Source: the human T2T-CHM13v2.0 reference genome, Homo sapiens
DNA: 64,000 nt
Assembly: GCA_009914755.4 (NCBI GenBank)
Contig: CP086569.2
Coordinates: forward strand, 2,848,001-2,912,000
Direction of reading: 5' to 3'
The first letter of the stretch is position 1; the number at the start of each line of letters is the position of its first letter. A program made the position numbers and the translations under genes. This document shows positions 42,952 to 53,901 of this stretch, in pieces. Under the pieces are notes generated by a model. It did not search any database and was not told where the DNA came from. It saw nothing but the letters and a program-made list of their open reading frames with translations.

Positions 42952-43684
42952 ATCTGTATTGGCGTGGATGTAGGGGAAAGGGAATGCTTATACATTGCTG
43001 GTGGGAATGTAAATTAGAACAAGCTCTATGGAAAACAATATGAAGATTCCCTAAAGAGCTAAAACTAGACCTACTATACAACTGAGCAATCTCACAACTG
43101 GGTATCTACCCAAGGGAAAAAAAGTCATTATGTGAAAAAGAAACTTGCACATGTATGTTTATAACAGCACAGTTTACAATTGCAAAGATGTGGAACCAAC
43201 CTAAGTGCCCATTGACTAATGAGTGGATGAAGAAAATGTGGTATATATACTTAGATTCCTACTTAGCCATTAAAAGGAAGAGAATAATGTCCTTTGCAGC
43301 AACTTCGATGGAGCTGGAGGCCATTATTCTAAGTGAAGTAACACGGGGGTGGTAAGCCGAAAACTATATGTTCTCACTCATAATTGGGAGCTAAGCTATC
43401 AATATGCAAAGGCATACAGAGTGATATAATGGACTTTAGAGACTCAGAAGGGGGAGGGTAGGAGGGGAGCTAGGGATAAAAACAGTACACATTAGTTACA
43501 ATGTGCACTACTTGAGTTATGGGTGCACCAAAATCTTAGAATTCACCACTGTAGGGAACTGAACAGTGAGAACACTTGGACACAGGGTGGGGAACAGCAC
43601 ACACCAGGGCCTGTAGTGGGGTTGGGGGAGGGGGGAGGGATAGCATTAGGAGATATACCTAATGTAAATGATGAGTTAACACGT

Positions 43685-43810
43685 ACATGTATACATATGT
43701 AACATGGCACATGTATACATATGGCACATGGCACATGTATACATATGTAACAAACCTGGCACACATATACATGGCACATGTATACACATGTAACAAACCT
43801 GCACCTGCAC
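43685..43810 (+). repeat. Internal tandem duplication, about 3-4 copies of a 30-bp unit, in the L1 3'UTR
   Basis: 'catatgtaacatggcacatgtatacatatggcacatggcacatgtatacatatgtaacaaacctggcacacatatacatggcacatgtatacacatgtaacaaacctgcacctgcac'. A single copy occurs in L1 consensus. Confidence 0.75.
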
Positions 43811-44732
43811 ATTGTGCACATGTACCATAGAACTTAAAGTGTAATAAAAAAAAGAATTTACCACTGTATAATTCATCCATGTAACAGAAGACCACTTGTA
43901 CCCCAAAATATATTAAAATAAAATGAAAATTAACAAAACAAATTGTACCAGGCAAACAATAAAAAAAAGCAAATATAAACAAACATTTATATATTTGTAA
44001 GTGAAATTTGTTAGTTTCAAGAATCTTTTCAGTTATTTAAAATCTAAAAGTCATGTTATGTTACATTAAGTAGTAGATAGTCATAAAATATCTGAGGAAC
44101 TATTTTGTTTGTTTGTTTTTGGTTTCCACAGAAATTCATCTTAATAAATATTTAATTACTGAAATCATGTAGAGGTCTGACTTGTCTGGAAGCTCATCTA
44201 CAACAACACTTCCTGAAATGAGACATAACTGTTAACTGTTTAATTGGACTGGCCTATTTGGGGATTAAGAGGCAGAGACAATGGCTTATGAGACAACCCA
44301 CCAACCCAATTTCTAGACTTCGAATCTTTTTGTGGAAGTTTCAGATTGGAGAACATTGAGGCTCATAAAACAATACCCCCAAATTAAGATCTCAGAAGCA
44401 TAGGTTTTCTCTGTCCTTCTCCTGCACTCCTGTCTGTTACCCCCTCATTTTCCCCCAAGGGAAGCCATAGAAACTAAAATCCCTTTTCTCCAAGATGGGT
44501 CATAGAAACTAGAACTCCTTTTCCACATGAGACAGTTAACACTGTGTTTCCTTTCTGGAAGAGATGTTGTAGATGGGCTTCCACAAAAGTAAGGCCTCTG
44601 TATGATTTCAGCATTCAAATATTTAATGAGGCATTTCTATGGAAATATAATAAACAAAGATAAGTTAGGTAATAGTCATAAAACCTAAAAATGATTACCC
44701 TAACTTTCCTCTTCTTTCTGTGAAAGTATTTA

Positions 44733-45470
44733 GGGGTGGCAAATATCCAAGTCTCCCAACACCAGATATGTTACTGGTGGCAAATATCTGAGTCTCATGG
44801 CACCAAATATGTTAGGGGTGGAAGGTATTGGAGTTAAGGGTGGTGAATCCGTACAGGTCTGCAGCAACCTCAATTCTTGCCTCCTCGGAAGAAAGAATTC
44901 AACTGAGAGGCATAAGGCAGAAAAAGAGACCAAGGCAAGTTTCAGAGCAGTAGTGGAATTTTATTTAAAAAGGCTTTTGAACAGGAAAGAAAGGAAAGTA
45001 CGCTTGGAATAGACATAAGAGGGCATGTGAAGGTCAAGTGCCATCTTTAACCCTGATCCTAGAACTTTATAGACTGGCCCCTTTCCCGTGATTCTTCCCT
45101 TAGTGTGGGCTTCCTGTACATGCAGTACCCTTCTTACCCTTGGGAGGTGAGTACACGCAGTATTTTTAGGAAGTTGTATGCGTGCTCATCTGAGACTTTC
45201 TTCCCTTTTCTGGTGGAGTGTCCTCGGAAGGTCATACTCTGCCATTTTGTCTCTTAATGCACATGCCCAGGAAGTTGCATCTCTCTGGCACCTACAATTA
45301 ACACTTTAGTGCAACAGGTGTGGACCATAAAAAAAATGACCTCTCCCTGACACCGGCTGTCAATTTATCACTTTTACAATGTGATAATTGCTGAACAATT
45401 ACCCAACATTCCTAATGGGTGGAGAAAGAGCCCTCTCCTGGACCACTCCTCCTAACTGCCATAAAGAACT
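44733..45470 (+). repeat. Unclassified dispersed repeat, copy R1 (about 740 bp; LTR-like features)
   Basis: About 75% identical to 52486-53260 over the full length: 'ggtggcaaatatcc...gtctgcagcaacctcaattcttgcctcctcggaagaaagaattcaactgagaggcataaggcagaaaaagagaccaaggcaagtttcagagcag...ggaaagaaaggaaagtacgcttggaa...'. Confidence 0.6.
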
Positions 45471-46204
45471 TATCTGACCTACTTTGTTTGATAGTAGGTC
45501 ATAAGAGCCCCTTTTAAAAGAGGGTCCTTACCTATATCCAGAAGGAAGAAATGCTGCACAGAGAGGCTAGGACAAATACGAACAGACGGGCTTTGCTGTT
45601 TCCCGACTCAGTCTATTAGCATTAGCTATTACTCTCTTTTCAGTCATGGCTCTGCACAGTTGACCATTTTTTATTAAACCTAAGCATAATAACGGACACC
45701 TTCACCCATATCTTTGGGTCTTTATTCTGAAGGTTCTCATGTAACATAAAACTGTGATTCAATATAATTATTTTGCTTCTCTCTTGTTAAACTGTCTTTG
45801 TTCTAAGGGTGTCAGCTGTGACCCTTATGGGGAGGAAAGAAATCACCCATTTTGCACCCCCACAGGAAATTAGTTAACATATTATTTATTAATTTTTTGC
45901 TAAAATATATCTTATCAAATAACAGCTAGAGTGCAATTTAGCAGAAATGATGTTGGCATTACACAAATATAGAACATTTTTTATACACCTCTATATTTTG
46001 TGGGCTCAGAAACTGATATCCCAAAATATGGTGTTTTAATGTGCTGAACTTAAGAAGCCTCAAGTCTCGCTGACCTGTCCTCCACCACAGCCTCTCCCAA
46101 AGCATGGGACAAAGTTGTTATTTGAAGCTGCTCTATCGGCCCAAAGTCCAGACGCACCAGGGAGAACAATTGTTGTTGTTTTTCTCTTCCCTATTATATA
46201 ATTA

Positions 46205-46545
46205 TTTATTGCCGAAAAGAAGACCAAGAATTTAACCACACAAGAACAGACTCTTATATAAGATAATGTCTGTCTCTCAAATGTATTCAAATTCCAAAGA
46301 GAACTATTTACCAGTTAATCTGTTCCCCATCCATTTATTCTTCCTGTTATTCAATTATTGCCCCTCACCATAATTCTTCTTCCTCCCTTTCAAAATCTGT
46401 TTTGCCAGGATCTGAGTCCCATTCTTTCTGTAACATCAAGCTGGTGTATAAGCTTCTTTGCCTTATTGGGGGGTTGGATCTTTGTTTCCTGTATAAACAT
46501 TGAATAAATTTGTATGCCTTTTCTCTTATTAATCAACGTGTCTCA
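46205..46545 (+). repeat. Unclassified dispersed repeat, copy A1 (about 340 bp; AATAAA-containing, LTR-end-like)
   Basis: Homologous to 51640-51960: '...caagataatgtctg...attccaaagagaactatttaccagttaatctgttcc...cattgaataaatttgtatgccttttctcttattaatc'. Confidence 0.55.
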
Positions 46546-47756
46546 TGTCGGTGATTTTCAGCCAACCTTAAGAGGGCAAAGAGGAATTGTCCCCTTGGCT
46601 ACCCTACAATATCTATTACCTGTATCTTTCTTAAAATTGTACGTTAGCCATTTTTACTAGTTTTGAAAATGTTTTTTAAAAGAGAAAATAGTGTTTTGCA
46701 AAAGTTAGCAGACAATTTTATTGAAGTCCCTAATGCCTAATTTTTTAAGTGATTATTTGCATAACATATATTTTATCAAATGTGTTGCATTATGTTAATG
46801 GCATTTTGATTGTTAGTATTAATTTATGTGATAAATATTTCCTACATTAAAAAATTTAATACCAATAAATAAATAGCCTTCTTTCATTCAGAGCACATAT
46901 GGCTCTTTCAATGGGGCAAAGAGGTATCCAACTGCTACTGACTTTAAGCAGATCAAAAATTCTTTTCAGGTTGAGCAGGACACAAATTAGTCACAATCAA
47001 TCACATTATCTGTTCTCTTACACCTTCCAATTCCACTCTGAATAGTATCCACAGGAAAGAATTAGTAGGAAATTAAATTATAATCATGTATTCTGGAGAA
47101 TGTATAGAAAGTATTAAAGGACTGTGTAGAAGAAATTTGAATAGAACATAAAGGCATTAGATTCGTGTGAAAAGAACACAGCAGCATATGTGCCTTGTGA
47201 TATAATGTCAGACAAATTTCTTTCATATAATTAGCGAACCCTGGTGTTGCAGAACTTTGCTTCTTAGTTCAGCTAAAACCAAGTTCTTGTGACACGACCA
47301 GGAAGTTAGGCATGCAGGCACATTGAAGGGTGAGGGGAATGGAATTTATTGGGCAAAAAGGAAAAAAAAACAACAACAAAAAACACCTCTCAACAAAGCG
47401 AGAGGAGTTCCTGCTAACAGGCTGCCACCTCACAGGTTGATTTTAGGCCACACACAGTAACTGAAGAGGCCAGGCTCCTCCCCTGTGTAAACAGCACAAA
47501 CTTCCCATGGCTCCACCCTGTTCTCCCAGTGCACAGGCCGGTAGGAGATTGTCGGGAGACCCTCTCCCTTATCTGCTTTCTGCATCTATCACTGGCTTAC
47601 TATGTACATGAATATAAGACAGAAATTTTAATGTAACAACTAGGAAGCAAAAAAAAAAAAAAAAAATTACACAGTTTTACAGCCTGTTAATGAAATTCCA
47701 TTTTCATTGTTATGGGTGGTGTGCATTTTTAGAATTATAATATTTAATAGCATAGG

Positions 47757-50039
47757 TGTATTAGTCCATTTTCACGCTGATCATAAAGATATACCCAAGA
47801 CTGGGCAATTTACAAAAGAAAGAGATTTAACGCACTTACAGTTCCACTTGGCTAGGGAGGCCTCACAGTCACAACAGAAGATGAAAGACATGTCTGACAA
47901 GGAGGCAGACAAGAAAAGAGCACTTGTGCAGGGAAATCCCCGTTTTTAAAACCATCAGATCTCATGAGACTTATTCACCATCATGAGAACAGCATGGGAA
48001 AGAACCACTCCCGTGATTGAATCACATCCCACCAGGTCCATATCACAATATGTGGAAATTCAAGATAAGATTTGAATGGCGACACAGCCAAACCGTATCA
48101 TTCCACCCCAGCCTCTCCCAAATCTCATGTCCTCACATTTCAAAACCAATCATGCCTTCCCAACAGTCCCCCAAGTCTTAACTCATTTTAGCATTAACTC
48201 AAAAGTCCAACATCTCATCTGAGACAAAGCAAGTCCTTTCTGCCCATGAGCCTGTAAAATCAAAAGCAAATTAGTTACTTCCTAGATACAATGTGGGTAT
48301 AGGGATTGGGTAAATACAGCCATTCCAAATGGCAGAAATTGGCCAAAACAAAGGGGCTACAGACCCCATGCAAGTCGGAAATCCAGCAGGGCAGTCAAAC
48401 CTTAAAGCTCCAAAATGATCTCCTTTGACTCCATGTCTCACATCCAGGTCACGCTGATGCAAGTGGTGGGTTCCTGAGGTCTTGGGTAGCTCCACCCCTG
48501 TGGCTTTGTAGGGTACAGCCTCCTTTCTGGCTGCTTTCACAGGTTGGCATTGAGTGTCTGTGGCTTTTACAGGCGCACGGTGCAAACTGTCAGTGGATCT
48601 ATCCTTCTGGATTTTGGAGGACGGTGGCCCTCTTCTCACAGCTCCAGTAGGTGGTGTCTCAGTAGAAACTCTATGTGGGGGCTCAGACCCCACATTTTCT
48701 TTCCTCACTGCCCCAGCAGAGGTTCTCTATGAGAGTCCTGCCCCTGCAGAAAACTTCTGCCTGGGCATCCAGGCGTTTCCATTCATCTTCTGAAATCTAG
48801 GCAGAGGTTCCCAAACCTCAATTCTTGACTTCTGTGCATTTGCACACTCAACACCATGTGGAAGCTGCCAAGGCTTTGGAATTGCGTCCTCTGAAGCCAC
48901 GGCCTGAGCTATATGTTGGCCCCTTTCAGCCACAGCTGGAGTGGCTGGGATGCAGGGCACTAAGTCCCTAGGCTGCACACAGCACAGGGACCCTTTGCTC
49001 AGCTCGCAAAACTGCTTTTTCCTCCTAGACCTCTAGGCTTGTTATGGGAGGGGCTGCCATGAAGACCTCTGACATGCCCTGGAGACATTTTCCCAGTTGT
49101 CTTGGGGAATAACATTAGGCTCCTTGTTACTGATGCAAAGTTCTGCGGCCGGCTTGGATTTCTCCTCAGAAAATGGGATTTTATTTTCTATCGCATTGTC
49201 AGGCTGCAAATTTTCTGAACTTTTATGCTCTGCTTCCTTTTTAAAACTGAATGATTTTAACAGCGCCCAAGTCACCTCTTAAAGGCTTTGCTGCTTAGAA
49301 ATTTCTTCCGCCAGATACCCTAAATAATCTCTCTCAGAGTCTATGTTCCACAAATCTCCAGGGCAGTGGCAAAACTCTTGCTAAACCATAACAAGAGTCG
49401 CCTTTGCTCCAGTTCCCAAAAAATTTCGCATATCCCTCTGAGACCACCTCAGACTGGATTTCATTGTCCATATTTTCAGGATTTTGGTCAAAGCTATTCA
49501 ACAAGTCTCTAGGGAGTTCCAAACTTTCCCACAATTTCCTGTCTTCTTCTGAGCCCTCCAAACTGTTCCAACCTCTGCCTGTTACCCAGTTCCAAAGTCG
49601 TTTCCACCTTTCCCAGTATCTTTTCAGCAGCACTCCACTCTACTGGTAACAATTTACTGTATTATTCCATTTTCGCACTGCCAATAAAGACATATCACAC
49701 TGCTGATAAAGACATACCTGAGACTGGGCAATTTACAGAAAAAAAAAAGAGAGAGAGAGAGAGATTTAATGGACTTACAGTTCCACGTGGCTTGGGAGGC
49801 CTCATGATCATGACAGAAGGTAAAAGGCACATCTCACATCGTGGCAGACAAGAGAATAGAGTCTGTGCAGGGAAACTCCCCTTTTTAAAATCATCAGGTC
49901 TTGTGAAACTTATTCACCATCAAGAGAACAGCATGGGAAAGACCCACCCTTATGATTCAATCACCTCCCACTGGGTCCCTCCCACAACACATGGGAATTC
50001 AAGATGAGATTTGGTTGGGGACACAGCCAAACCTTATCA
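47757..50039 (-). mobile_element. Complete THE1/MST-type MaLR retroelement, antisense: 3' LTR 47757-48100, internal 48101-49656, 5' LTR 49657-50039
   Basis: Both LTRs read antisense '(c)tgtatta(g/t)tcc(a)ttttc(a/g)c(g/a)ctg...gacttacagttcca...cccaccaggtcc...caagat(a/g)agatttg...gacacagccaaacc(g/t)tatca'. A 1.56-kb internal segment lies between them. The 145-aa minus ORF 48271-48708 lies in that internal segment. Confidence 0.85.
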
Positions 50040-50250
50040 ATAGAAAAGTTTAAATTTTTCTCCTGAAGGTTCAATTATTTGAGTCTGTAAAACCAACTAA
50101 TAGACAATATTGGGATGCAGAAAATGAATACAAAAAATATGGTGCTTGGGCATGCTTTGTGCTTTTGAAAATGAAAAGACCTCAGAAATAAGCCTCAGAA
50201 TCAAGGTCCTTCTAACCTTGTTGCATTCCTCCCACTCCTCAAGAAGCATT

Positions 50251-50393
50251 TTCTTTTTCTGAGACAGGGTCTCACTTTGTCACCCAGGCTGCCCTGCAGT
50301 AGCACTATCATAGCTCACTATTGTCTCAACTTCCCAGGCTCAAGCCATCCTCTCACCTCAGCCTCCTGAGTAGCTGAGACCACAGCTGCGTGC
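50251..50393 (-). mobile_element. Alu fragment (3' half), antisense
   Basis: 'ttttctttttctgagacagggtctcactttgtcacccaggctgccctgcagtagcactatcatagctcactattgtctcaacttcccaggctcaagccatcctctcacctcagcctcctgagtagctgagaccacagctgcgtgcc'. Confidence 0.7.
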
Positions 50394-50747
50394 CTGTATT
50401 AGTCCGTTTTCACACTGCTGATAAAGACGCACCTGAGACTGGGCAATTTACAAAAGAAAGAAGTTTAATGGACTTACAGTTCTACATGGCTGGGGAAGCC
50501 TCACAATCATGATGGAAGGCAAGAAAGAGCAAGTCATATCTTACATGGATGGCAGCAAGCAAAGAGACAGCTTTTGCCGAGAAACTCCCCCTTATACAAC
50601 TATCAGATCTCATGAGATTTATTGGCTATCACAAGAACAGCAGGAGAAAGACCTGCCTCCATGATTTAATTATCTCCCTCCAGGTCCCTCCCACAACACG
50701 TGGGAATTCAAGATGAGATTTTGGTGGGGACACAGCCATATCATATC
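50394..50747 (-). mobile_element. Solitary THE1/MST-type MaLR LTR, antisense, directly downstream of the complete element
   Basis: 'tgtattagtccgttttcacactgctgataaagacgcacctgagactgggcaatttacaaaagaaag...cctccaggtccctcccacaacacgtgggaattcaagatgagattttggtggggacacagccatatcatatca'. Confidence 0.85.
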
Positions 50748-51467
50748 AATGTCACTGTCAACGAAAAGAGCCGAACTCTGTAAAATATTTGAAGAGATTT
50801 ATTCAGAGCCAAATATGAGTGACCATGGCTGGTGACACAGCCCTCAGGAGGTCCTGAGAACATGTGCCCAAGGGGGTTGGGATGTAGCTTGGTTTTATAC
50901 CTTATAGGGAGGAATGAGACATCAATCAAATACATTTAATAAATACATTGGTTTGGTTCAGAAAGGTGGTACAACTCAAAGTGGGGGCTTCCAGGCTGTA
51001 GGTAAATTTAAATACTTTCTGGTTGACAATTGGTTGAGTTGGTCTAGAGACCTGGGATTGACAGAAAGGAAATGTTAAGGTTAAGATAAAAGACTGTGGA
51101 GACCAAGGTTATTTTGAAGCCTTATAGTGGCTGCCCTTAGAGACAATAGATGACTAATGTTTTCTATTCGGATCTTTAAAAGGTGCTAGATTTTTAGTCA
51201 ATCTGTTTAGGATTGGGAGGGTCTGGAAGAAAAAGATTGGCTATGTTAATAGAGATTCTTTACAGATGTAAATTTTCTTCCACAAAGGACAGCTTTGCAG
51301 GGCCATTTCAAGATATGGCAAAGAAACATGTTTTCACATAAAATATTTTGATTTACTTCCATGTCTCATAATATTGTGCCAGAGTCAGGTTGGAAAGTAA
51401 GTCATGATATATAGGACTAAATAAAACCCATCTGATGAAAATTTATGGTTTGTAGGGCATGATTTCC

Positions 51468-51565
51468 CATGTTCTCCAGGCTAGTCTCAAACTCATGGCC
51501 TCAAGCAATCCTCCTGCCTTGAACTCCCAAACTACTGATATTACAAGCATAAGCCACGATGCTCA
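51468..51565 (-). mobile_element. Alu fragment (left-arm portion), antisense
   Basis: 'catgttctccaggctagtctcaaactcatggcctcaagcaatcctcctgccttgaactcccaaactactgatattacaagcataagccacgatgctc'. Confidence 0.6.
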
Positions 51566-51639
51566 GTGCAGAGCAGGAAAGCTTCATACCAACAGAAACA
51601 TAATTCCTTTCAATTTCTTCCCTGAAATGTCACCAATTT

Positions 51640-51960
51640 CAGAATAGAAGACTAAAGAAGGCAACCACACCAAATAGACTTTTTTTGCAAGATAATGCCT
51701 GACTCTTGAACTGATTTAAATTCCAAAGAGAATCACTTATGAGTTAATTTCTGTCTCCCTGGTCCATTCATTCTCTCTAATAATCACTTACTGCTGCCCA
51801 AAAGAATTTTCTACATTCCTTATCACCTCCCTCCCCTATGAAAAAGAGTACACTTCTATATCCCATTGAGGGTTTGGGGTAATCATTTTTCCCCCAACCC
51901 CTGCCCCTCATGCATGTTAATAAAATTTGTATGCCTTTTATCCCATTAATGAAACTGCCT
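51640..51960 (+). repeat. Unclassified dispersed repeat, copy A2
   Basis: See A1: '...caagataatgcctgactcttgaactgatttaaattccaaagagaatcacttatgagttaatttctgtctcc...catgcatgttaataaaatttgtatgccttttatcccattaatg'. Confidence 0.55.
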
Positions 51961-52485
51961 TTGTAAAATTATGGCAATAAGAGAAATCTGACATCATTGA
52001 CTTCATCTCACTCATAATTTTGAAGCTCTCCTCAGTAATTCATGGGCATAGGCCAAGCAAACTTTGGGAGAGATTTAGTTTGTAGTTTAATCTTAAAGCA
52101 AGGGTGATAATAGCTCTTCCCCAAACTAAATCAGCCTTGTAAAACTAATGAAAGTCCCTGCAAGTAAGATTATGAGAGGGACTTGAATTCTGCTAAGATG
52201 TAGGCATAGTTTCTATAATCCCTTACTGCTCAGGACTCAGGTAGCTGGAGATGACAAGATTCATGACTTCCACAGTTGCTCTTATAGATAATATCACTAT
52301 TGTGGAAGCTAAGATTCATCTTTTGAGATTTTTTTTTGCACACTTTTGTGTTCTGGCAACCAAGTTAATCCATCTGGACTTCTGATTCATGACTCAACCA
52401 GTCCTGTGGCCCCCCACTGAGAGGTGGACTCAACGCATGAGGACCATTTTTCACACTCCTATTATGGCAACTTCAACTGTTAGCG

Positions 52486-53260
52486 GTGGCAAATATCCAG
52501 GTTGCCAGTGCTGAATCTGTATGGGTCTGCAGCAACTTCAATTCTTGCCTCTTCAGAAGAAAGAATTCTACTGAGGTGCATAAGGCAGAAAAAGAGACTG
52601 GGGCAAGTTTCAGAGTGGGAGTGGAAGTTTATTGAAAAGCTTTAGAGCAGGAAAGAAAGGAAAATACACTTGGAAGGGATCCAAGTGGGCATCTTGGAAA
52701 TCAAGCACCTTGTTTAACCTTGAACCTCAGATTTTATATGCCGGTCTACTTCTAGCATCTTGCATCCTTTTCCTTTCAGTCTTCCCTAAAGGTGAGTCAC
52801 CCGCATGCATGGTGCCCTCCTTGCACTCGGGAGGTGAACACGCACAGTGTGTTTAAGTAGTCGTAAGCATGCTCACCTGAGGCTTTCTTCCTTTTCTGGT
52901 GAAATGCCCTGGGAAGGTCATACTTTACCATTTTATCTCTTAATGTACATGCTCAAGCCAACTCACCCCATTCCTGAGTTGTTATTGGAAGCTGTCAATT
53001 ACCAATTTCAAGTGTTTTTATCTATTGAGAAATTGCCTCTTTCTGGCATTGGCTGTGATGAATTATTATTTTAGAAAGCCCAACCATCTGGAAACTGCCT
53101 CTCTCTGGTATGAGCTGCAATCAATTCTCATTCTAGAGAGGCAGTGTGATAACTGCTAGGCCATCACCTGATGTTTGCCTGACATTCCCAGTGGGTGGAG
53201 GGTGAGCCCTCTCATGCCCCTCTGATGCCTGCCTAGCTATATACTGAAACACAACCAATC
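52486..53260 (+). repeat. Unclassified dispersed repeat, copy R2; contains an internal tandem duplication of about 50 bp
   Basis: See R1. Internal duplication 'gaaattgcctctttctggcattggctgtgatgaattattattttagaaag / gaaactgcctctctctggtatgagctgcaatcaattctcattctagagag'. Confidence 0.6.
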
Positions 53261-53901
53261 AGTAACTGCCATTACCTAGTCTTCTCCCTGCATACCAAAT
53301 TTTCTTGAAAGACCATAACTCTAAGCCTTCAAGGAGACTGATTTGGGTAAAAAGCATGTCTCCTATGTGGCCAGTTTCCTGTAAAATAAATCCTTTCCTT
53401 ACTGCAATGCTGTGATCTCAGTGTTTGTGCAGCAGGCAGGAAAAGGCCATCAAATGATTACATTGATATGCTTCTTTTTAATTTGATTTTTATAGAATCT
53501 TCAGAGCACAAAGGAAAAGTTTTCCCTTGTCCCCTACAGAAATTAGCAGAAAAAAAGACATACAAATGTATTGGCATGAATATGTGAGCATGAGAGTCAT
53601 ACAAATAAAAATCCTGAAAGAAAAGGAAGATGACTGATGCTTAAATATTCACTTCATTGAAGAGAGGGGAGATGGAGGCTTGTAGGAGTAAATGATATTC
53701 AGAGGAAATTAATGAACCTAAAGAACAGCAGCCCAGAAACAGGTTTCTCTGAGCTCTGAAGAATGTCACATTATGGGTTATAGAAAAATGAAGGAAGGAA
53801 TTTATGTCAAGCAAAGGTAATCTTGTTATGCAGATAAAAATATTCCAGGTAATCTCTGAGCTGCCTTTAGAAAAAGTAGATGATAGTTTGTGGTTGGTTA
53901 A

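What the first reader, a model, noticed from the sequence alone, without database searches (positions are those of the whole stretch)
44733..53260. Mirrored arrangement of two unclassified repeat modules (R about 750 bp, A about 340 bp): R1...A1 then A2...R2, all in the same orientation
R1 (44733-45470) and R2 (52486-53260) are about 75% identical over about 750 bp. A1 (46205-46545) and A2 (51640-51960) are homologous over about 340 bp and end in AATAAA-containing, LTR-terminus-like sequence. A third A-like end sits just after R2 (about 53330-53480). The order is R1, then 735 bp, then A1; versus A2, then 525 bp, then R2. The intervening 5 kb holds a complete THE1/MST element and a solo LTR. 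R carries internal about 40-50-bp tandem duplications that differ between copies. I cannot assign R or A to a named family. They may be pieces of one long ERV1-type LTR family present as 2-3 copies, or signs of an old local duplication or inversion. 50760-51640 begins with an LTR-start-like 'gagccgaactctgtaaaatatttgaagagatttattcagagcc' and may be a third copy's 5' part.
Basis: seen in the sequence. Interest (0 to 1): 0.55.

Follow-up and report, generated by a model that had tools for sequence, protein, structure and literature searches.

The report
Old retroviral LTR remnants, coincidentally mirrored
This stretch of human DNA is an ordinary pile-up of ancient retrovirus-like repeat fragments: the two R blocks are separate insertions of one common LTR family, the two A blocks are an older LTR-like pair, and the mirror-like order has no functional meaning.

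Summary
Both repeat pairs are real, but the arrangement is ordinary transposable-element debris in AT-rich human DNA.

**R blocks.** R is a complete LTR of a dispersed ERV1-type family. Eight further copies, sitting in unrelated flanks, were recovered from host-contaminated metagenome contigs.
- They define the termini as TGTTAC...GTAACA.
- R2 (52478-53251) has a perfect 4-bp target-site duplication, CAAC.
- R1 (44727-45462) probably has AAAG.
- Both target sites fit the published ERV1 motif TN6A.
- R1 and R2 belong to different subfamilies, separated by two diagnostic indels. Each is closer to unlinked copies than to the other.
- They are therefore independent solo LTRs. They are not the two LTRs of one provirus and not a local duplication.

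**A blocks.** A1/A2 is an older LTR-like unit of about 600 bp (K2P about 0.40).
- A2 is split by an Alu-borne insertion.
- A1/A2 may be the two LTRs of one decayed non-coding element, which I slightly favour, or two separate copies.

**Claims not supported.** The "third A-like end" after R2 and the "third copy" at 50760-51640 are unrelated to R or A. No retroviral protein remnants or Rfam RNA families are present. I could not assign Dfam family names with these tools.

The parts
44727..45462 (+). R1: solo LTR of a dispersed ERV1-type family (younger, R1-type subfamily); 3' tip eroded
   Evidence: Aligns over its whole length with 8 unlinked copies whose flanks are unrelated. K2P to the majority consensus is 0.094.
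44730..44821 (+). 41-bp tandem repeat of the LTR's own 5' terminus, private to R1
   Evidence: TRF gives period 41, 2.2 copies, 78% matches. The repeat finder agrees. It is absent from the other 9 copies.
44723..44726 (.). Probable R1 target-site duplication AAAG (left copy); the right copy is at 45463-45466
   Evidence: Sequence read. The target TGAAAGAA fits the ERV1 motif 5'-TN6A-3' (PMC2836564). Less certain than R2 because the 3' tip of R1 is eroded.
45463..45466 (.). Probable R1 target-site duplication AAAG (right copy)
45633..45866 (+). LTR-3'-end-like tail directly after R1, distantly related to the 3' end of A1 and ending ...ACCCCCACA
   Evidence: Local score 25.5 vs 14.0+-1.8 (0 of 200 shuffles). 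For the last 95 bp the score is 18 vs 8.3+-1.4 (0 of 500).
45999..46608 (+). A1: about 610-bp LTR-like unit (TG...CA, TATA-like box, AATAAA about 100 bp from the end); homology to A2 is shown for 46007-46545
   Evidence: The outer boundaries are inferred.
47757..50039 (-). Full-length MaLR (THE1/MST-type) element with LTRs at 47757-48100 and 49695-50039 and 5-bp target-site duplication ATAGG/ATAGA
   Evidence: LTR pair found. K2P between its own LTRs is 0.22. TSD read. The family name rests on my memory of the THE1 termini.
50109..50247 (+). A2, 5' part (before the Alu-borne insertion)
   Evidence: A banded alignment on the expected diagonal after removing 50248-51562 gives score 25 vs 14.4+-2.2, 0 of 300 shuffles.
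50248..50394 (-). Antisense Alu, right-arm part (poly-T end)
   Evidence: Matches other Alus in the window at 71-78%.
50395..50748 (-). MaLR solo LTR, no target-site duplication
50751..51448 (.). Unassigned 700-bp segment X; not related to R or A
51449..51566 (-). Antisense Alu, left-arm part
51567..52014 (+). A2, 3' part (homology to A1 is shown up to about 51960; the end at 52014 is inferred)
52474..52477 (.). R2 target-site duplication CAAC (left copy)
   Evidence: The empty-site window TTCAACCA fits 5'-TN6A-3'.
52478..53251 (+). R2: solo LTR of the same family (older, R2-type subfamily), TGTTAG...GAAACA
53029..53140 (+). 62-bp-period tandem duplication inside R2; both units are also present in other family copies
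53252..53255 (.). R2 target-site duplication CAAC (right copy)
53256..53480 (+).

Best explanation
The interval is a cluster of decayed LTR-retroelement remnants in AT-rich human DNA. Nothing in it works as a unit.

**R1 and R2.** They are two independent solo LTRs of one dispersed ERV1-type LTR family, from two different subfamilies. Each arose from its own integration, which left a 4-bp target-site duplication. Homologous recombination between the two LTRs of the provirus then left a single LTR; this last step is inferred.

**A1 and A2.** They are two copies of an older LTR-like unit of about 600 bp.
- Most likely (about 0.5) they are the 5' and 3' LTRs of one decayed, non-coding LTR element.
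- Otherwise they are two separate copies of one family (about 0.3).
- A short local duplication is less likely (about 0.15).

**Later insertions.** A MaLR element landed between A1 and A2. An Alu landed in A2 and was itself disrupted by a MaLR LTR plus 700 bp of unassigned sequence. The R LTRs landed about 0.5 kb outside each A copy.

**The mirror order.** The order R-A...A-R is a by-product of these separate events in a region that accumulates insertions.
For: **The window is human.** An R1 ORF is found exactly in six human gut or bile metagenome contigs that are 99.4-100% identical to 44236-45931.

**R is a dispersed family.** A 21-mer shared by R1 and R2 retrieved 8 contigs. Each carries an R copy at 73-87% identity, set in unrelated flanks that contain Alu and THE1 pieces.

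**R has LTR termini.** The alignment defines common ends 5'-TGTTAC... and ...CTAACTACCTGTAACA-3', a terminal inverted repeat, with homology stopping there in several copies.

**Target-site duplications.**
- R2 has a perfect CAAC on both sides.
- R1 has AAAG on both sides.
- Copy L003 has AAAG on both sides.
- All three target sites fit 5'-TN6A-3', and a 4-bp duplication is the ERV1 rule (PMC2836564 read).

**R1 and R2 are from different subfamilies.**
- A 20-22-bp indel and a second indel of at least 19 bp are present in R2, L003 and L004. L008 also has the first.
- Both are absent from R1, L002, L005 and L007. L001 also lacks the first.
- K2P is 0.278 for R1-R2, 0.145 for R1-L002 and 0.220 for R2-L002.
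- Distance to the majority consensus is 0.094 for R1 and 0.172 for R2.

**No shared flanks.** There is no homology between the flanks of R1 and R2 or between the spacers.

**A block.**
- The homology is significant and extends across the Alu-borne insertion.
- The inferred units are 610 and 591 bp.
- The outer flanks TATTT and TAATT match at 4 of 5 positions, while each copy's own flanks do not match.
- K2P is 0.40 for A against 0.22 for the LTRs of the MaLR element nested between them. This fits A being older.
Against: - No repeat library could be run, so no family name is assigned. The ERV1 class of R rests on TSD length, target motif and termini.
- The 3' tip of R1 is eroded, so its TSD is less secure than that of R2.
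- Two R copies within 7.7 kb, placed symmetrically about 0.5 kb outside the A pair, is an unlikely coincidence under uniform insertion. I could not compute how unlikely, because the family's copy number is unknown.
- No copies of A from elsewhere were obtained.
- A's boundaries are inferred and the match of its outer flanks was found by looking for one.
- I saw no primer-binding site after A1 and no polypurine tract before A2.
- No retroviral protein domain was found on either strand.
Confidence: 0.82

Rival explanations
1. Nested proviruses. R1 and R2 are the 5' and 3' LTRs of one outer ERV1 provirus, and an inner LTR element (A1...A2) inserted into its interior. This would naturally give the order R-A-A-R in one orientation.
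For: - The order and direct orientation fit.
- The R1-R2 start-to-start distance of 7.7 kb is provirus-like.
- The gaps R1-A1 and A2-R2 are of similar size, about 0.5 kb.
- R1/R2 divergence (0.27) is not below that of the nested MaLR LTR pair (0.22).
Against: - R2 has its own perfect TSD (CAAC) and R1 a different one (AAAG). The outer flanks, AAAG and CAAC, do not match.
- R1 and R2 differ by two indels that each shares with unlinked copies. They are not each other's nearest relatives. The two LTRs of a provirus are identical at integration, so this pattern is not expected.
- No primer-binding site or polypurine tract is visible.
- No gag, pol or env remnant was found in any of six frames of the non-MaLR interior.
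- A (K2P 0.40) looks older than R (0.27). This is the wrong order for an inner insertion.
Confidence: 0.04
2. Old local duplication or inversion. R2 is a copy of R1, and A2 a copy of A1, made by segmental rearrangement of this locus.
For: Two pairs of homologous blocks lie within 8.5 kb. For A, no copy from elsewhere could be retrieved, so a purely local origin of the A pair is not excluded.
Against: - Homology stops exactly at the LTR termini of R, and the flanks and spacers are unrelated.
- R1 and R2 are each closer to copies elsewhere in the genome than to each other, and they carry different subfamily indels.
- All repeats are direct, so no inversion is involved.
- The order R-A / A-R cannot come from one duplication.
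Confidence: 0.06
3. R and A are the 5' and 3' parts of one long (about 1.8 kb) LTR family, present as 2-3 fragmented copies.
For: R1 is followed within 0.17-0.4 kb by an A-like LTR end (45633-45866) and within 0.54 kb by A1.
Against: - R is a self-contained unit with inverted termini and TSDs.
- In L002, L003 and L007, R ends in unrelated sequence. No L001-L008 contig matches A1 or A2.
- Next to R2 the order is reversed, with A2 upstream.
- The sequence after R2 is unrelated to A.
Confidence: 0.02

Closest known systems
Solo LTRs of human class I endogenous retroviruses (ERV1 superfamily; from memory the layout resembles the MER41/MER4 group of LTRs)
   Same: - 650-800-bp unit, dispersed in the human genome.
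- TG...CA ends with a short terminal inverted repeat.
- 4-bp target-site duplication and TN6A target motif, as described for ERV1 (PMC2836564).
- No coding capacity.
- An 'AGTTTATT' block about 150 bp from the 5' end. This last point is a resemblance from memory only.
   Different: - No named Dfam/Repbase family could be assigned here.
- R1 carries a private triplication of its first 41 bp.
- No R copy was seen attached to an internal retroviral sequence; the contigs available were short.
MaLR LTR retrotransposons (THE1/MST)
   Same: - The element at 47757-50039 has two LTRs of about 345 bp, a non-coding interior of about 1.6 kb and a 5-bp TSD.
- Its termini are those I remember for THE1 (TGTATTAGTCC... 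is the reverse complement of ...GGACTAATACA).
- The A1...A2 unit, if it is one element, has a similar small non-coding architecture, with an original size of about 2.4 kb.
   Different: - A shows no sequence similarity to the MaLR LTRs or interior in this window.
- Its LTR-like units are longer, about 600 bp.
Nested or clustered transposable-element insertions in human intergenic DNA (Levy et al. 2010, PMC2836564)
   Same: Younger elements inserted into or beside older ones: an Alu in A2, a MaLR LTR in the Alu, a MaLR element between A1 and A2. That paper reports a four-fold preference of TEs for inserting into existing TEs.
   Different: Two same-family LTRs flanking an older pair symmetrically is not a described pattern. 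Here it is best read as coincidence.

Membership tests
ERV1-type solo LTR (for R1, R2) | Dispersed multi-copy sequence whose homology ends at the same two points in copies with unrelated flanks | tested here: met
   8 extra copies from metagenome contigs. BLAST to the window. MAFFT alignment with flanks.
ERV1-type solo LTR (for R1, R2) | 5'-TG...CA-3' termini forming a short inverted repeat | tested here: met
   The consensus is TGTTAC...GTAACA. R2 has TGTTAG...GAAACA. R1 has TATTTAG... with an eroded 3' tip.
ERV1-type solo LTR (for R1, R2) | 4-bp target-site duplication directly flanking the single LTR | tested here: met
   R2 CAAC/CAAC is perfect. L003 has AAAG/AAAG. R1 has AAAG/AAAG but with an eroded tip. 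L002 and L007 show none. The rule that ERV1 makes a 4-bp TSD comes from PMC2836564.
ERV1-type solo LTR (for R1, R2) | Target-site motif 5'-TN6A-3' | tested here: met
   TTCAACCA (R2), TGAAAGAA (R1), TGAAAGGA (L003).
ERV1-type solo LTR (for R1, R2) | Significant match to a curated Dfam/Repbase ERV1 LTR model | not testable with these tools
   No repeat library is available.
One provirus with R1 as 5' LTR and R2 as 3' LTR | Identical TSD outside the 5' LTR and outside the 3' LTR, with none around each LTR alone | tested here: not met
   The outer flanks are AAAG and CAAC, and each LTR has its own matching pair.
One provirus with R1 as 5' LTR and R2 as 3' LTR | The two LTRs are each other's closest relatives, since they are identical at integration | tested here: not met
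   K2P is 0.278 for R1-R2, 0.145 for R1-L002 and 0.220 for R2-L002. Two subfamily indels separate them.
One provirus with R1 as 5' LTR and R2 as 3' LTR | Remnants of gag/pol/env, a primer-binding site or a polypurine tract between the LTRs | tested here: not met
   Pfam scan of all six frames of 45400-47760 and 50040-52500 gave no retroviral family at E<=1. PBS and PPT were checked by inspection only.
One LTR element with A1 as 5' LTR and A2 as 3' LTR | Two direct repeats of equal extent with TG...CA ends | tested here: inconclusive
   Homology is shown for about 540 bp. The inferred units are 610 and 591 bp. A1 has TG...CA and A2 has AT...CA. The boundaries are inferred.
One LTR element with A1 as 5' LTR and A2 as 3' LTR | Matching TSD on the outer flanks only | tested here: inconclusive
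   TATTT vs TAATT match at 4 of 5. The own-flank pairs TATTT/ATATC and ACAAT/TAATT do not match. The context is AT-rich and the A2 end was chosen with the match in view.
One LTR element with A1 as 5' LTR and A2 as 3' LTR | Primer-binding site after the 5' LTR and polypurine tract before the 3' LTR | tested here: not met
   By inspection, 46609 onward reads ATATCTATTACC... and the sequence before 50109 reads ...AACTAATAGACAAT.
One LTR element with A1 as 5' LTR and A2 as 3' LTR | Family members elsewhere in the genome | tested here: inconclusive
   The viral-contig 17-mer hits are chance seeds. The bacterial genome scan was empty. The six-frame protein search was empty.
Local segmental duplication | Homology continues beyond the repeat units into the flanks or spacers | tested here: not met
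   No flank or spacer similarity by BLAST, by banded alignments or by permissive local alignments.
MaLR (THE1/MST) element at 47757-50039 | Two LTRs of about 350 bp, a non-coding interior of about 1.6 kb and a 5-bp TSD | tested here: met
   LTR pair at 81% identity, K2P 0.22. TSD ATAGG/ATAGA. The family name rests on termini recalled from memory.

The most novel reading that the evidence does not exclude
The A1-interior-A2 unit (45999-52014, about 2.4 kb before later insertions) could be a rare, uncatalogued non-autonomous LTR element. Alternatively, two different subfamilies of one ERV1 lineage landing 0.5 kb either side of it could reflect a local integration hot spot rather than chance.
Probability: 0.05. 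Interest if true: 0.2.

Novelty: already known. Interest (0 to 1): 0.05.

Why it matters
It matters little. It is a worked example of how two same-family solo LTRs and an older LTR-like pair can mimic a structured, mirrored module. It also shows that target-site duplications and comparison with unlinked family copies are enough to tell independent insertions from a provirus or a duplication when no repeat library is at hand. No regulatory, coding or RNA feature was found that would give the arrangement a function.

Tried and rejected
**Looking for retroviral coding remnants**
- A Pfam scan using DNA references failed because of stop codons. I redid it with stops replaced by X. No retroviral domain was found on either strand.

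**Looking for more copies of R**
- A viral-contig scan with the R 21-mer returned nothing.
- A bacterial/archaeal genome scan with a degenerate R 31-mer returned nothing.

**Looking for more copies of A**
- The A 17-mer in viral contigs gave 18 hits, all chance seeds of 17-26 bp.
- A degenerate 22-mer in the bacterial genomes returned nothing.
- A protein search with a concatenation of all stop-free translations of A1 and A2 gave 7995 word-sharing candidates, none with E<=0.01. This negative is weak, because A-type copies may be too diverged for short ORF matches.

**Testing the claimed extra copies**
- 'A3' against A1, A2 and the R1 tail showed no signal.
- X (50751-51448) against R and A showed no signal.

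**Testing how far the A homology extends**
- There was none further upstream of 46000 after removing the MaLR element.
- There was none downstream of 46545/51960.

**Other**
- Rfam at gathering threshold found no family in the whole window.
- I tried to name R, A and X from memory of Repbase consensus sequences and could not do so reliably. No names are claimed.


Full report
**Source and context.** The window is human. A 71-codon ORF inside R1 (44797-45012) occurs exactly in six contigs of human gut and bile metagenome assemblies. These contigs are 99.4-100% identical to window 44236-45931, so they are host DNA. The region is AT-rich, mostly 33-40% GC. It is full of Alu and MaLR pieces and holds no Rfam family at gathering threshold.

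**Checking the observation.** A self-BLAST of 44500-53700 against the window confirmed both repeat pairs as direct repeats.
- R1/R2: 44840-45269 vs 52508-52955, 74.8% over 453 columns, E=5e-83.
- A1/A2: 46208-46389 vs 51636-51821 at 72%, plus 46506-46536 vs 51923-51953 at 87%.
- The A1/A2 local alignment scores 85 against 20+-2 for shuffles.
- The MaLR element and the solo LTR between them are also real.

- The sequence after R2 (the supposed third A-like end, 53256-53480) is indistinguishable from shuffled sequence when compared with A1, A2 or the R1 tail.
- 50751-51448 is related to neither R nor A.

**What R is.** R1 and R2 share the exact 21-mer GCATAAGGCAGAAAAAGAGAC, with 0 occurrences expected by chance in the window.
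- One scan of the metagenome contig collection with this 21-mer returned eight contigs.
- Each holds an R-like copy at 73-87% identity to R1 and R2. The flanks are unrelated to this window apart from Alu and THE1-type pieces.
- They are therefore paralogous primate copies, and R is a dispersed repeat family.
- A MAFFT alignment of all ten copies with flanks shows homology starting at a common 5'-TGTTA(C/G) in R1, R2, L001 and L004 (in degraded form in L003 and L005).
- Homology ends at a common ...CTAACTACCTGTAACA-3' in L002, L003, L004 and L007.
- The termini are a TGTTAC/GTAACA inverted repeat, the signature of a complete LTR.

On this register R2 is 52478-53251 and R1 is 44727-45462. The 'TAACTGCCAT' that seemed to end both copies is a mis-registration.

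**Independent insertions.** Three lines of evidence point the same way.
1. *Target-site duplications.*
   - R2 is flanked by a perfect CAAC on both sides (52474-52477 and 53252-53255).
   - R1 is flanked by AAAG on both sides (44723-44726 and 45463-45466). Its last few LTR bases are eroded, so this is less secure.
   - Copy L003 also has AAAG/AAAG.
   - Levy et al. report that ERV1 insertions make 4-bp duplications within a 5'-TN6A-3' target (PMC2836564). All three reconstructed targets fit it: TTCAACCA, TGAAAGAA and TGAAAGGA.
   - A provirus would carry one duplication at its two outer ends. Here the outer flanks are AAAG and CAAC.
2. *Subfamily structure.*
   - A 20-22-bp segment is present in R2, L003, L004 and L008 and absent from R1, L001, L002, L005 and L007.
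   - A second segment of at least 19 bp is present in R2, L003 and L004 and absent from R1, L002, L005 and L007.
   - Proviral LTRs are identical at integration, so they cannot differ by indels that each shares with unlinked copies.
3. *Distances.*
   - K2P is 0.278 for R1-R2, 0.145 for R1-L002, 0.163 for R1-L007 and 0.220 for R2-L002.
   - R1 is 0.094 from the majority consensus and R2 is 0.172. That consensus is dominated by the R1-type subfamily, so R2's figure is inflated.

In addition, the flanks and spacers of R1 and R2 share nothing. Six-frame Pfam scans of the non-MaLR interior find no retroviral domain. R1 and R2 are therefore two solo LTRs from separate integrations. They are neither a provirus nor a local duplication.

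- The first 41 bp of the LTR are about triplicated in R1 only.
- A 62-bp-period duplication in R2 (53029-53140) has both units represented in the other copies. It is therefore a family feature.

**What A is.** The core A1/A2 homology is as reported, but A is longer.
- An antisense Alu lies in two pieces, 50248-50394 and 51449-51566.
- Between the pieces sit a MaLR solo LTR (50395-50748) and 700 bp of unassigned sequence.
- When 50248-51562 is removed, a further match (46007-46036 vs 50118-50147) falls on the same diagonal as the core. The banded score is 25 against 14.4+-2.2, with 0 of 300 shuffles reaching it.
- No homology extends further out on either side.

A1 has LTR-like features.
- A TG start lies at 45999.
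- A TATA-like box is present.
- An AATAAA lies about 100 bp before a ...CCCTACA end at 46608.

The inferred A2 unit is 50109-50247 plus 51567-52014. That gives 591 bp against 610 bp for A1.

The outer flanks TATTT and TAATT agree at 4 of 5 positions. Each copy's own flanks do not agree. This weakly favours A1 and A2 being the two LTRs of one element, originally about 2.4 kb long.

Several points count against that reading.
- I see no primer-binding site or polypurine tract.
- There is no coding remnant.
- The A2 end was picked with the flank match in view.
- No A copies from elsewhere could be retrieved.

K2P for the A core is 0.40. This compares with 0.27 for R1/R2 and 0.22 for the two LTRs of the MaLR element nested between A1 and A2. 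So A is the oldest layer, which is consistent with everything that has inserted into or between its copies.

One unexpected extra turned up. The 230 bp that end at 45866, just after R1, are distantly but significantly similar to the 3' end of A1.
- The score is 25.5 vs 14.0+-1.8 over the whole stretch.
- The last 95 bp score 18 vs 8.3+-1.4, with 0 of 500 shuffles reaching it.
- So an A-related LTR end lies after R1, not after R2.

**History (inferred).**
1. The A-type LTR-like units came first.
2. The R2-type LTR integrated about 0.46 kb downstream of A2.
3. A MaLR element integrated between A1 and A2 (TSD ATAGG/ATAGA).
4. An Alu entered A2 and was later disrupted.
5. The younger R1-type LTR integrated about 0.54 kb upstream of A1.

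At roughly 2.2e-9 substitutions per site per year (general knowledge, a rough figure), these layers span about 40-90 million years.

The mirrored order then needs only one coincidence: two R integrations on either side of the A pair. Its probability cannot be computed here without the family's copy number. TEs are reported to insert about four-fold preferentially into existing TEs (PMC2836564).

**Comparison with known families.**
- R meets every solo-LTR and ERV1 feature I could test: dispersed copies, TG...CA inverted termini, a 4-bp duplication and the TN6A target.
- Its Dfam name could not be determined. Its 5' layout resembles the MER41/MER4 group, but that is a recollection and not a test.
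- The element at 47757-50039 behaves as a MaLR (THE1/MST type).
- A remains an unnamed LTR-like unit.

**Verdict.** This is an ordinary, already-catalogued kind of sequence.

Noticed in passing
window 44077-44683: A palindromic, MITE-like element. Its arms at 44108-44248 and 44522-44658 are 77-80% complementary. It is bracketed by an exact 12-nt direct repeat ATAGTCATAAAA at 44077 and 44672. It is probably a non-autonomous DNA transposon; the family is not identified.
   Followed up: partly
window 50248-51566: An antisense Alu is split into its right-arm part (50248-50394) and left-arm part (51449-51566), with about 45 bp of its middle missing. Between the parts lie a MaLR solo LTR without a target-site duplication (50395-50748) and 700 bp of unassigned, LTR-like sequence (50751-51448). 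This is not a clean single insertion, and how it arose is unexplained.
   Followed up: partly
window 45633-45866: The sequence directly after R1 ends like an LTR (...ACCCCCACA). It is distantly but significantly similar to the 3' end of A1. It may be the 3' part of a related LTR truncated by, or adjacent to, the R1 insertion.
   Followed up: partly
window 47263-47567 and 24286-24589: A pair of inverted relatives, 66% identical over 318 columns. The copy at 47263-47600 looks like the 5' part of another ERV1-type LTR. It scores marginally above shuffles against R2 (17 vs 11.6+-1.3).
   Followed up: no
window 47757-50039: The two LTRs of the full-length MaLR element are only about 81% identical (K2P 0.22). 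The element is therefore old, more MST-like than THE1-like in age. The TSD ATAGG/ATAGA has one mismatch.
   Followed up: yes
window 43678-43801: A short tandem array of 24-nt units (ACATGGCACATGTATACATATGTA...), four partial copies (family D7).
   Followed up: no
L006 (metagenome contig Ga0115855_100941) 2743-3121 in R orientation: This R-family copy is rearranged. Its 5' 135 bp are direct but the 3' part matches R1 and R2 in inverted orientation.
   Followed up: no
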